From the sequence record AF125520: DNA of 61,670 nt, one strand, 5' to 3'. Positions within the stretch are counted from its first letter, which is position 1. The number at the start of each line of letters is the position of its first letter. The DNA is from Escherichia phage 933W. Below, piece after piece: positions 9,001 to 12,000 of the stretch. The position numbers were made by a program.

Positions 9001-12000
9001 TGTCATATCTCACCTCAAATAAGTGGTTTGCTGCCTAATTTCATTTTCTGGCGACCAACACAAGTCACCTCGCCGTCAGTTGTTTTGATTTCCGGTAGCC
9101 TGCCGCGTAAATGGCTACGTTTGGAAGACATACACCAGTTTCTGGTTGCTTATGTCCAAACTCATTCGCGTACACAATGGCCGCTCGCTCCAGATTGCGT
9201 CTGTATTCTTTCTGTTGCCAGATCACGTCCTGTGCCATGAACTTAATTGGCTTAGCGTCTTCTATGCGCTCAGGCGTTTCGTGAGTACCTTTAGCCTGAA
9301 TCTGCGCTCTGCTTAGAGTAGGGCGGTGTAATACTTCTGAACTTATTGCTTCTTCGCGGGCCAGTACGCCGTTAGCTAATGCCTTTGCCTTTAAACGCTC
9401 ACGACGACGAGAACGTGAATTGCCTTTGAACTGAGTTCTGCGTGTCATATAGACCTCCTGATGAACTTTGGTGGTGTGGTAGGTGGGAGACCCATTTCGA
9501 CCTGTTTCGGCCTACTTCAATTCGGCAATAGTCCCGCAGGCCTCGCCGCTTTACGTGCGACATATTCCCGTCCATGAACCCTTCACCACACCCCAAAGTT
9601 CACTTTGGTTATTGCGCTTTGTCAGCGCCGTAGATTCATATTCGAATCGTTGTATATTCACCGCCCTGGTGAGTAATGCGTCCTGCTGACGACGATAATA
9701 ATGAACCAATAGTTCGACATTATCAAGAACTATTGGTACGAATTTTGGTGATTTATTAACTCTACGAAGTATGATTCTGATATATAAGGAAATTTATTTT
9801 TGAAAATGTGGCTGATGAAGGTTATGCGGCAGGGATCATAACTGCATGGTTTAGCGAGTTACATCAATAAATACAATTGGTTATGTTTTTTAGGTGGGCG
9901 AACGTGAGGCAAAGAAAACCCGGCGCTGAGGCCGGGCTAGATTTTAAAGTATTTATCTTTTAGAGATGTAGATGTAAAACTTTTCGCCTTTGAAAATTTT
10001 TTGTCATCAGAAGGGCTTATGAACTCATCTTTTTTGTAGGGAACCGCTAATGCTGCATCACGTCTGCGAGGCAGCTTGCTTACTTCCTCGCGCTTTTTCA
10101 TGATCAGTTATCCTTTAATAACCTATACAGTTTTGTAGGGGTACATCCTGAGGATATTGTTAAGTTCGTAGCACGCCTTTTCCGCCCATCATCGTATAAA
10201 CGAAAACCAGTAGTAGACGAATTTTCTGCGTCAAAAACTATAGACAGTATAGCGTCCCCAGACTTTTTTTGCCATTCGCATGTGCCGTTAGTTGGTTTCG
10301 TCATCTGTAGACGCCAGTCAAGAACGCCATCACTTATAGCTGAGAGATCGTTTAGTACATCTAGTACGGATTGATATCTTTCATTTGGATCTACATGAAT
10401 GCATTTGTTCACTATTGTTATTAATTTTTTATGTATATGGGGAGGATACTCTTTTAATGGATAGCAGCCATTAATTATCGACTCTCTGAGTTGTTCAATC
10501 GTGCTAAATGCAGATCTTTCTCTTTCAAAATTATCATGTCCAACACACATTCTATATATGGTTAATCCTGCCTGATATATGTCATATGTGAAATTATAAT
10601 CATTTGTTGATAAAGAAAAATATTCCGGTGGCACATGAAAATGATATCCAAACTCAGGCGCAGCTCTCGATTCCTCATTGACTAACTGAGATAATCCAAA
10701 GTCAGATAGCATGGCCTCATTTCTGTTTGATATCATAATGTTATTAGGTTTTATATCAAAATGCATAAGACCTTTTGAGTGTATATGATAAAGTCCACTT
10801 AAAAATTGAATGGAATACCGTATTATCTCCCTGCTTGTAAGATTATTTTTTTTCATTAATTGGTTTAGCGAACCATTATGATAAAATGGCATGGCTATAT
10901 AGATATTGCTCTCACATTGAGCAGCATACTGAACTTGCACAATATTTGGATGTGCATGTTTATAGAGAAGCCTTGCTTCATTAAAGTAGTCGTCGTGGTT
11001 AGTGTTTTCTTTTTTTTCTATTTCTTTAATCACCAAGTCATGAGCTAGGTGTCTGTCATGAGCCAGATATACTTTTGAAAAACAACCCTGTTCTTCTAGA
11101 TCACTAATCCATTCGAATTCTACATCAGCTCTTTTGTATGGAGTTAGCATCCCCTTACCTCCGCAGATAGTGCAGCCAAAACAGCTTCATTTGTTTCAGT
11201 TGTAAAACCAGAATTATCGATTCCATTTATATTGCGGTGTGACTTCAATATTTCTTTATACTCGATCTCTGTTAGGTTCAATGATGATTTCATGCCAGAT
11301 TTTCTAATAGTGTAATATTTTCTTACATCACTGCTTGAAAATGCTTCTTGAATAACAGCTTCTATATAAAGGCGGTCAATGCTAAGATTATCAGAGTTTG
11401 ATTCAGTAACGCGTATGGCAGCTAATTCAACATTATATAAATTAAGAATGTCGAGGATGTTATTTCTCACATACTTTAATTTTTCTGGTGTGTCTAAGGT
11501 CGAAGGTATTTTAATAACATCAACACATTTGAGTGCAGACTCATTAGTGCAATATACAACAAAAGATGTAACTTTGGGCGCCGCTCTAACACCTAGTATT
11601 CTCATTTTTTATATCCTATTTTAGAATCAGGCCGCATCTCTGCGACCATCCATCATCCAAACGTCTCTTCACTCATCCGAAGAAGCAGCAATCCGGGTTA
11701 GCACGCACAAGCTCAAGCGCATCAGTCAGCGAAAGTTCAGTACTGTACTGATGCCATTTCATATCCTTCCGCATCCAATAGATTTTCCATCTATCCAGAG
11801 AACGTATGTACTTGATTCTTGCTGATGGCAGGATGTTTGTTTCACCTGGATTGCCCTGCCACACGGGGCGCTGTTCGCCGATATCTATCGTTTGGTCATT
11901 GATGCTATAAACAATATCCAGTTCATTGCGGATATGTTCAGGCGGCCTTATGCTTTCAATGAATTGGTGAACTTCTTTTTTTACTGCTTGATATTCAAGG

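What the first reader, a model, noticed from the sequence alone, without database searches (positions are those of the whole stretch)
9614..9628. Same GCTGACAAAGCG hairpin element in both nutL and nutR positions
The leftward transcript upstream of the N-like gene and the rightward transcript after cro (13127-13141) both contain GCUGACAAAGCG, foldable as a 4-bp stem with a UGACAAA loop. The nutR copy is preceded by a boxA-like cgctattttcaca. Shared hairpins at these two positions are the hallmark of N-utilisation sites, here with a loop unlike lambda boxB.
Basis: partly seen in the sequence, partly recalled or inferred. Interest (0 to 1): 0.45.

Follow-up and report, generated by a model that had tools for sequence, protein, structure and literature searches.

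The report
Known N-antitermination (nut) sites of 933W
The two matching hairpins are the nutL and nutR boxB sites where this Shiga-toxin phage's N protein loads onto RNA polymerase to read through terminators, and they are identical to the already characterised P22 boxB and H-19B nutR, so the finding is correct but ordinary.

Summary
GCTGACAAAGCG occurs exactly twice, at 9615-9626 (-) and 13129-13140 (+), each on the transcribed strand: in the leader of the N gene and just after cro. The nut-site interpretation is right, but the structural description and the implied novelty are not.

- **Structure:** each copy folds as a 5-bp stem with a GACAA pentaloop, not a 4-bp stem with a 7-nt loop. That is one base away from lambda nutR's GAAAA.
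- **Window identity:** the window is a 933W-type Stx phage.
- **Left hairpin:** GCGCUGACAAAGCGC is identical over 15 nt to P22 nutL boxB, the RNA solved with P22 N peptide (PDB 1A4T).
[quoted passage not shown] That system has been footprinted and mutated.
- **Comparative support:** about 300 related loci back the function. Both hairpins persist next to unrelated immunity modules, the stems co-vary, and the loop tracks the class of N's arginine-rich motif.

Verdict: already known, low interest. Side observations: nutL has no recognisable boxA, and Sakai-type Stx phages carry a true GAAA tetraloop boxB that differs from this one by a single C.

The parts
9065..9448 (-). N gene (127 aa antiterminator); ARM residues 12-RSRRRER-18
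   Evidence: ORF. Pfam PF25694 N_peptide, E=2e-15. 98% identical to HK97 N. The ARM, residues R3/S11/R15/R18 and the 127-aa length match H-19B N as described in PMC3526286.
9614..9628 (-). nutL boxB: GCGCU-GACAA-AGCGC, 5-bp stem plus pentaloop
   Evidence: Identical to the annotated P22 nutL boxB and to the RNA in PDB 1A4T. Invariant in the 78 of 80 loci with the same N that reach it.
9633..9648 (-). nutL spacer hairpin GAUUC-gaauau-GAAUC, immediately 5' of boxB
   Evidence: Predicted in the 131-nt fold. It sits in the same position as the nutR spacer hairpin.
9698..9726 (-). pL candidate (TTGATA-17-CATTAT); start inferred near 9690
   Evidence: Promoter scan. The sequence TCAGCAGGACGC that follows matches the P22 early-left transcript start annotated and read. 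It lies downstream of a strong terminator at 9938-9917. Operator-like repeats at 9703-9717 and 9727-9741 resemble 12776-12790 at pR (weak evidence).
12802..12829 (+). pR candidate (TTGCAA-16-CATAAT)
   Evidence: Promoter scan. Same position as the 'putative major rightward promoter' in the identical record AP004402.
12861..13088 (+). cro
   Evidence: ORF, annotation, HTH families.
13096..13104 (+). nutR boxA-like CGCUAUUUU
   Evidence: 2 mismatches from the P22 boxA CGCTCTTTA. It lies within the region targeted by oligo RS662, described as 'antisense to nutR boxA of H-19B'. It is polymorphic among relatives: CGCTCTTTT and CACTCTTTT.
13111..13122 (+). nutR spacer hairpin GGAC-auuc-GUCC
   Evidence: Fold. 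The paper states there are two hairpins in the H-19B nutR site. A natural A to G variant keeps the pairing as G.U.
13127..13141 (+). nutR boxB: UCGCU-GACAA-AGCGA, 5-bp stem plus pentaloop
   Evidence: Exact match to RS664, 'antisense to nutR boxB' of H-19B. Paired with nutL in all 76 loci (75 fetched loci plus the window) that contain both hairpins, across at least 14 different intervening immunity modules.
13084..13167 (+). Whole nutR/tR1 segment, identical to the published H-19B nutR
   Evidence: Four oligos (RS662-665) match exactly as reverse complements and tile 13084-13167.
13227..13523 (+). cII, the first gene downstream of nutR
   Evidence: Pfam Phage_CII, E=1e-31.

Best explanation
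These are the two N-utilisation sites of a 933W/H-19B-type lambdoid Shiga-toxin phage. Transcription from pL (leftward) and pR (rightward) produces RNA in which each 15-nt element folds into a boxB hairpin: a 5-bp stem with a GACAA pentaloop that adopts a GNRA-like fold with the C flipped out. The N-terminal arginine-rich motif of the phage N protein, encoded just downstream of nutL, binds this loop. N stays tethered to the nascent RNA and, together with NusA bound to the spacer, modifies the elongating RNA polymerase through its C-terminal domain. The polymerase then reads through the Rho-dependent tR1, which overlaps nutR, and through downstream terminators, turning on the delayed-early genes. 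Shown directly here: the sequences, folds, positions, strands, identity to characterised elements, and comparative co-variation. Taken from the literature for the identical nutR sequence and an N with the same ARM, length and checked residues: N-dependent antitermination, loss of antitermination on ARM mutation, and N+NusA protection of spacer and boxB. Inferred: that nutL works the same way in this phage, and the exact pL start.
For: (1) The exact 13-nt word lies on the transcribed strands at the canonical nutL and nutR positions. (2) Both copies fold as a 5-bp stem plus GACAA loop. (3) nutL is identical over 15 nt to the annotated P22 nutL boxB and to the RNA of the P22 N-peptide/boxB NMR structure 1A4T. 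[quoted passage not shown] In that system N+NusA/NusG protect the spacer and boxB, and ARM mutants (R15C/P, R18P, and others) lose antitermination. This window's N has the same ARM, the same residues at those positions and the same length. (5) N matches Pfam N_peptide. (6) Mosaic test: 76 loci (75 fetched loci plus the window) with the same N keep both hairpins, although the 1.25-3.5 kb between them falls into at least 14 groups and many pairs of groups share no more than 5% of 15-mers. (7) Stem co-variation across natural variants: 62 of 65 cells are standard pairs against 23-24 of 65 when the register is shifted. There are double compensatory changes at the three outer pairs and RNA-specific G.U variants. 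(8) The loop tracks the ARM class in about 300 loci with no mixed locus. (9) There is a promoter candidate upstream of each site, and no terminator-like site lies between either promoter and its boxB on the transcribed strand.
Against: nutL has no boxA within 3 mismatches of the consensus in the 66 nt between the inferred pL start and boxB, so the full lambda-style boxA-spacer-boxB layout is met only at nutR. BLASTP does not detect the N-terminal similarity to P22 N as significant; only the C-terminal RNAP-binding tail aligns. The P22-like nature of the ARM therefore rests on a short MAFFT alignment. No binding or antitermination experiment was found for nutL of 933W/H-19B in the held library. 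Rfam has no model to confirm against.
Confidence: 0.96

Rival explanations
1. The two copies are a chance repeat or a relic of common ancestry with no function.
For: With one mismatch allowed, 7 of 100 shuffles gave at least 2 matches to the 12-mer. Short GC-rich hairpins with GA-rich loops are common; 15 hairpins with a GANAA loop were found in the window.
Against: The exact 13-mer has about a 0.002 chance of recurring anywhere, yet it recurs in the one about 140-nt cro-cII interval, on the correct strand. Both copies are retained across unrelated immunity modules. The stems co-vary. The loop co-varies with the N ARM class. The sequence is identical to experimentally used nut sites.
Confidence: 0.01
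2. The hairpins act as RNA signals of another kind (intrinsic terminators, RNase III processing sites or translational regulators of N or cII) rather than as N-binding sites.
For: nutR overlaps the Rho-loading (rut) region of tR1 in H-19B, so the same RNA does serve termination when N is absent. The long N leader contains other hairpins.
Against: No U-tract follows either hairpin, and neither is called terminator-like. A 5-bp stem is too short for RNase III (this rests on my general knowledge). The same hairpin occurs in two unrelated mRNA contexts. Its loop tracks the N ARM class rather than the downstream gene.
Confidence: 0.02
3. The 15-bp inverted repeats are DNA-level binding sites for a dimeric protein, not RNA elements.
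For: They are perfect DNA palindromes apart from the 5-bp centre.
Against: Natural variants keep pairing through G.U wobble (sal4 nutR U.G, a P22-class nutL variant G.U), which preserves the RNA helix but not DNA symmetry. The orientation is always that of the transcript. The loop, the non-palindromic centre, is the most conserved part. The structure of the identical RNA bound by an N peptide is solved.
Confidence: 0.01

Closest known systems
Phage P22 nutL boxB with N (gp24) ARM peptide (PDB 1A4T)
   Same: The 15-nt RNA GCGCUGACAAAGCGC is identical to the window's nutL boxB. It has a GACAA pentaloop with the third base (C) looped out of a GNRA-like fold. The N proteins share the motif G-N-x-(K/R)-(T/S)-R-R-x-E-R and the C-terminal tail.
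   Different: Outside the ARM and the C-terminal 30 aa, the N proteins are not detectably similar. The peptide positions reported to contact the flipped C (His, Arg, Ile in P22) align with Arg16, Lys20 and Leu24 here (my inference). P22 nutR uses a different stem with a C-C closing position (ccgccGACAAcgcgg), whereas here it is ucgcuGACAAagcga. P22 has a consensus boxA at both sites and short spacers.
Phage H-19B nutR/tR1 and H-19B N (Neely & Friedman 2000; R. Sen laboratory)
   Same: [quoted passage not shown] N has the same ARM 12-RSRRRER-18, the same mutable residues and the same 127-aa length. [quoted passage not shown] Function was demonstrated by reporter assays, in vitro antitermination and footprinting.
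   Different: No difference at nutR. This is the same element in a sibling Stx phage. I did not have the full H-19B N or nutL sequence to compare.
Phage lambda nutL/nutR and N
   Same: Same positions and strands and the same 5-bp stem plus pentaloop geometry with a U-A closing pair. Same logic of ARM-boxB tethering, NusA on the spacer and RNAP modification.
   Different: The lambda loops are GAAGA and GAAAA, of the GNRNA type with the fourth base protruding. Here the loop is GACAA, with a pyrimidine at position 3 that is the flipped base. N here has no counterpart of lambda Trp18 (the role of Trp18 is from my memory). The spacer is longer and contains a hairpin. nutL lacks a recognisable boxA.
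VT2-Sakai / g341c (epsilon34-like) N-nut systems
   Same: The nutR context is near-identical (ttcgtcctacgtcgctGA-AAagcga) and the positions are the same.
   Different: The loop is a true GAAA tetraloop, lacking the C, at both sites. It is paired with a lambda-like ARM, RRRARRA or RRRERRA.

Membership tests
Lambdoid N-utilisation (nut) site | A boxB RNA hairpin with a short stem and a GNRA-like loop | tested here: met
   5-bp stem plus GACAA pentaloop at both sites, dG -8.5 and -6.4 kcal/mol.
Lambdoid N-utilisation (nut) site | Two copies on the transcribed strands: one in the pL transcript upstream of N, one in the pR transcript after cro | tested here: met
   9614-9628 (-) lies 165 nt upstream of the N start codon. 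13127-13141 (+) lies 38 nt after the cro stop codon. Promoter candidates are upstream of both.
Lambdoid N-utilisation (nut) site | [quoted passage not shown] | tested here: met
   Pfam N_peptide, E=2e-15. ARM RSRRRER. The conserved tail VA(L/I)YAAG(Y/H)RK..Q.TAR is shared with P22, HK97 and Sakai N.
Lambdoid N-utilisation (nut) site | boxA (CGCUCUUUA-like) 5' of boxB | tested here: inconclusive
   nutR has CGCUAUUUU, 2 mismatches, labelled boxA in the H-19B literature. nutL has nothing within 3 mismatches. From memory, Neely & Friedman 2000 reported that boxA is dispensable in H-19B; only the title could be confirmed.
Lambdoid N-utilisation (nut) site | N binds boxB, and antitermination depends on N and nut | not testable with these tools
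   Shown experimentally for the identical H-19B nutR sequence and an N with the same ARM, length and checked residues. Not found for nutL.
Lambdoid N-utilisation (nut) site | Co-evolution of the ARM and boxB among relatives | tested here: met
   About 300 loci. The 933W-class (RRRERLK) and P22-class (RR[HR]ERRRK) ARMs go with G(A/U)CAA loops. The RRRARRA/RRRERRA ARMs go with GAAA. No locus is mixed. Stems co-vary.
P22-type boxB (GACAA pentaloop, third base extruded) | Loop GACAA closed by U-A on a GC-rich stem; identical to the solved RNA | tested here: met
   nutL is identical over 15 of 15 nt to the 1A4T RNA and to P22 nutL. nutR differs only in the outermost pair.
P22-type boxB (GACAA pentaloop, third base extruded) | An ARM homologous to the P22 N ARM | tested here: inconclusive
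   MAFFT aligns GNSRSRRRERLKAKALA with GNAKTRRHERRRKLAIE, 7 identities. BLASTP finds only the C-terminal tail significant.
Lambda-type boxB (GNRNA pentaloop, fourth base extruded) | A purine at loop position 3 (GNRNA) | tested here: not met
   The loop is GACAA, with position 3 = C.

The most novel reading that the evidence does not exclude
The flipped-out C of the GACAA loop may be the natural specificity switch between two N/nut compatibility groups of Shiga-toxin phages. 933W/H-19B-type and VT2-Sakai-type nutR sites are near-identical except for this one nucleotide, giving GACAA versus a true GAAA tetraloop, and each type is strictly paired with its own ARM class. The tetraloop class has no protruding loop base at all. 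In lambda the protruding base is reported to foster NusA binding, so the tetraloop class may recruit NusA differently. In addition, nutL of the 933W class works without any boxA.
Probability: 0.35. Interest if true: 0.35.

Novelty: already known. Interest (0 to 1): 0.1.

Why it matters
N-mediated antitermination at these sites is needed for early gene expression that leads on to Q and, in Stx phages, to toxin production. That makes the sites biologically important, but they are already characterised. The value of this check is to correct the structural reading: the element is a P22-type boxB, not a new loop type. It also places nutL and nutR at exact coordinates in a genome whose deposited records, as far as seen here, do not annotate them.

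Tried and rejected
- Rfam scan of 8900-13700 at E<=1 gave no match; no boxB/nut family reached threshold.
- Sequence search of N against PDB chains gave only a chance hit, so 1A4T was not recovered by sequence search.
- A literature search with the word-start 'nutr' was swamped by nutrition papers.
- The 933W genome paper, Neely & Friedman 2000 and Cheeran 2007 are not held. No held paper mentions nutL together with 933W.
- AF125520 is not in the collections.
- The first IMG/VR scan with the N alignment returned only N proteins at least 99% identical, so it gave no divergence. I reused it for the mosaic test.
- The MAFFT alignment of the 13 hairpin variants put the tetraloop gap at the 3' end, so A2 was unusable for the count of structure pairs. 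Pairs were counted by script instead.
- Using the 'putative operators' annotated in AP004402 to validate pL failed, because those sites do not resemble each other and have no counterpart near pL. A direct comparison found only weak operator-like repeats.
- A third GACAA hairpin in gene O was considered as a possible extra nut site and set aside, because about 0.9 such hairpins are expected by chance (my calculation).

Full report
**Observation.** The 12-mer GCTGACAAAGCG occurs exactly twice in the window, at 9615-9626 on the minus strand and 13129-13140 on the plus strand. The shared word is really 13 nt, CGCTGACAAAGCG. A given 13-mer is expected about 0.002 times on both strands of a 61.7-kb sequence. 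Each copy is extended by one further complementary pair, G...C on the left and U...A on the right. Folded as RNA on the transcribed strand, both give a 5-bp stem and a 5-nt GACAA loop (-8.5 and -6.4 kcal/mol; z -3.6 and -2.9).

**Context.** The region 9000-13500 is 100% identical to several Stx-converting phages of the species that contains 933W (Stx2 converting phage I, EDL933-Stx and others). The gene order is as follows:
- N, 9065-9448, minus strand; Pfam N_peptide, E=2e-15
- three accessory ORFs, including a Ser/Thr kinase
- cI, 12075-12782, minus strand
- cro, 12861-13088, plus strand
- cII, 13227-13523, plus strand

The left hairpin lies 165 nt upstream of the N start codon. The right hairpin lies 38 nt after the cro stop codon. 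A promoter-like site, TTGATA-17-CATTAT, at 9726-9698 (minus) precedes the left hairpin and follows a strong terminator at 9938-9917. The sequence just after it (TCAGCAGGACGC) matches the annotated start of the P22 early-left transcript. A pR candidate lies at 12802-12829.

**Identity with characterised elements.**
- The left hairpin, GCGCUGACAAAGCGC, is identical over all 15 nt to the boxB of the nutL annotated in the P22 genome record. It is also identical to the RNA used in the NMR structure of the P22 N-peptide/boxB complex, PDB 1A4T (PMC11480772). In that structure the GACAA loop adopts a GNRA-like fold with the C looped out and contacted by the peptide (PMC12550061).
- On the right, four oligonucleotides published by the Sen laboratory are exact reverse complements of window 13084-13107, 13105-13126, 13123-13146 and 13142-13167. 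[quoted passage not shown] The window's nutR is therefore the H-19B nutR.
- For that element, the same paper reports that N with NusA/NusG protects the spacer and boxB from RNase H and T1, and that the site contains two hairpins. N mutants R3H, S11F, R15C/P and R18P, or alanine replacement of the ARM 12-RSRRRER-18, lose antitermination.
- The window's N has exactly these residues at these positions and is 127 aa long, like H-19B N.

**Comparative evidence generated here.**
- Mosaic test. The 78 of 80 IMG/VR loci with an N at least 99% identical that reach the leader all have the left hairpin unchanged. In 76 loci that contain both hairpins (75 fetched loci plus the window), the 1.25-3.5 kb between the sites falls into at least 14 groups, and many pairs of groups share no more than 5% of their 15-mers. 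These are different immunity modules. The right-hand site is thus retained together with N across module swaps.
- Variation within nutR. The boxA-like word is polymorphic (CGCTATTTT, CGCTCTTTT, CACTCTTTT). The spacer stem shows an A to G change that keeps pairing as G.U.
- Stem co-variation. Across 13 distinct natural boxB variants from 933W, HK97, P22, lambda, three Salmonella phage types and VT2-Sakai, 62 of 65 stem positions are standard pairs, against 23-24 of 65 when the register is shifted. The three outer pairs each show double compensatory changes, and G.U variants occur.
- Loop and ARM class. In about 300 loci the loop follows the class of N's arginine-rich motif. RRRERLK (933W/H-19B/HK97) and RR[HR]ERRRK (P22) go with G(A/U)CAA at both sites. 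The lambda-like RRRARRA (VT2-Sakai) and RRRERRA (g341c) go with a GAAA tetraloop at both sites. No locus is mixed.

**Mechanism.** The evidence supports the standard N/nut mechanism:
- The nascent pL and pR transcripts fold boxB.
- The ARM of N binds the loop.
- NusA binds the spacer.
- The tethered complex modifies RNA polymerase through the C-terminal tail of N, which is conserved with P22, HK97 and Sakai N.
- The polymerase then reads through the Rho-dependent tR1, which overlaps nutR, and through later terminators.

Shown here are the anatomy, the identities and the co-variation. The biochemistry is taken from the literature on the identical nutR. That nutL behaves likewise in this phage is an inference from its identity with P22 boxB and its invariance.

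**Differences from lambda.**
- The loop has a pyrimidine at position 3, so it is not of the lambda GNRNA type. It is the P22 type.
- The spacers are longer and each contains a small hairpin: GGAC-auuc-GUCC at 13111-13122 and GAUUC-gaauau-GAAUC at 9633-9648.
- nutR has a boxA-like word with 2 mismatches. nutL has none within 3 mismatches.
- From memory, Neely & Friedman (Mol Microbiol 2000) reported that H-19B N needs NusA but not NusB or S10, that boxA is dispensable, and that the spacer dyad acts as a 'reducer'. I could confirm only the title, through a reference list. The paper itself is not held.

**Verdict.** The loop is not unusual, however: it is the well-known P22-type boxB. The exact sequences have already been used in structural work (nutL, identical to P22 boxB) and in functional work (nutR, identical to H-19B nutR). 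Novelty: already known. Interest is low.

**Mildly interesting residue.**
- Records for 933W-type phages seen here annotate no nut sites.
- nutL lacks a recognisable boxA.
- The other major Stx-phage N class (VT2-Sakai) uses a true GAAA tetraloop that differs from this boxB by one C in an otherwise near-identical nutR. I found no description of this in the held library.

Noticed in passing
L006 (VT2-Sakai) nutL about 110 nt upstream of N and nutR after cro; L005 4880-4895 and 2539-2552; about 125 IMG/VR loci: Sakai-type and g341c/epsilon34-type N proteins have a lambda-like ARM (RRRARRA / RRRERRA) with no Trp. They are always paired with a true GAAA tetraloop boxB at both nut sites. The Sakai-type nutR differs from the 933W-type nutR by a single C in the loop, within near-identical flanks. 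Lambda's protruding loop base is said to foster NusA binding, and these loops have no protruding base. No description was found in the held library.
   Followed up: partly
window 9629-9695 (-): Between the inferred pL start and nutL boxB there is no boxA-like word within 3 mismatches of CGCTCTTTA. nutR has one with 2 mismatches.
   Followed up: partly
L004 (Salmonella phage 118970_sal4) about 4871-4885 and 2189-2203; 7 loci in all: An N with a nearly 933W-type ARM (KGTSRARRRERLK) has nutL gcuccGUCAAcgagc, with U at loop position 2 and a C-C closing position like P22 nutR. Its nutR is ucgcuGACAAggcga, with a U.G closing pair. The working loop consensus is therefore G-N-C-A-A.
   Followed up: partly
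window 14376-14390 (+), inside the O gene: A third 5-bp stem plus GACAA hairpin (TCCGCGACAAGTGGA) lies on the rightward transcript and recurs in other loci carrying this O allele. About 0.9 such hairpins are expected by chance in the window (my calculation), so it is probably fortuitous.
   Followed up: partly
window 9593-9608 (-): The hairpin CCAAAG-UGAA-CUUUGG lies 5 nt downstream of nutL boxB. It is conserved in Salmonella phages L004 and L005 with a loop substitution (ccaaagtgagctttgg). Its role in the long N leader is unknown.
   Followed up: no
window 13164-13192 (+): A stable hairpin (core UAUGCGU-uucc-ACGCAUA) lies between nutR and cII and has no U-tract. The g341c record annotates a 'putative tR' at the equivalent position. 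The literature describes H-19B tR1 as Rho-dependent.
   Followed up: no
window 9917-9938 (both strands): A strong bidirectional terminator-like hairpin (AGCCCGGCC...GGCCGGG plus a T-run) separates the kinase operon from pL.
   Followed up: no
window 11279-11359 and 12746-12828 (features of AP004402): The 'putative operators' annotated in the identical record do not resemble one another and have no counterpart near pL, so they look unreliable. A different repeated motif does occur at both early promoters: GAACCAATAGTTCGA at 9703-9717, GAACTATTGGTACGA at 9727-9741 and GAACCATGAGTACGA at 12776-12790.
   Followed up: partly
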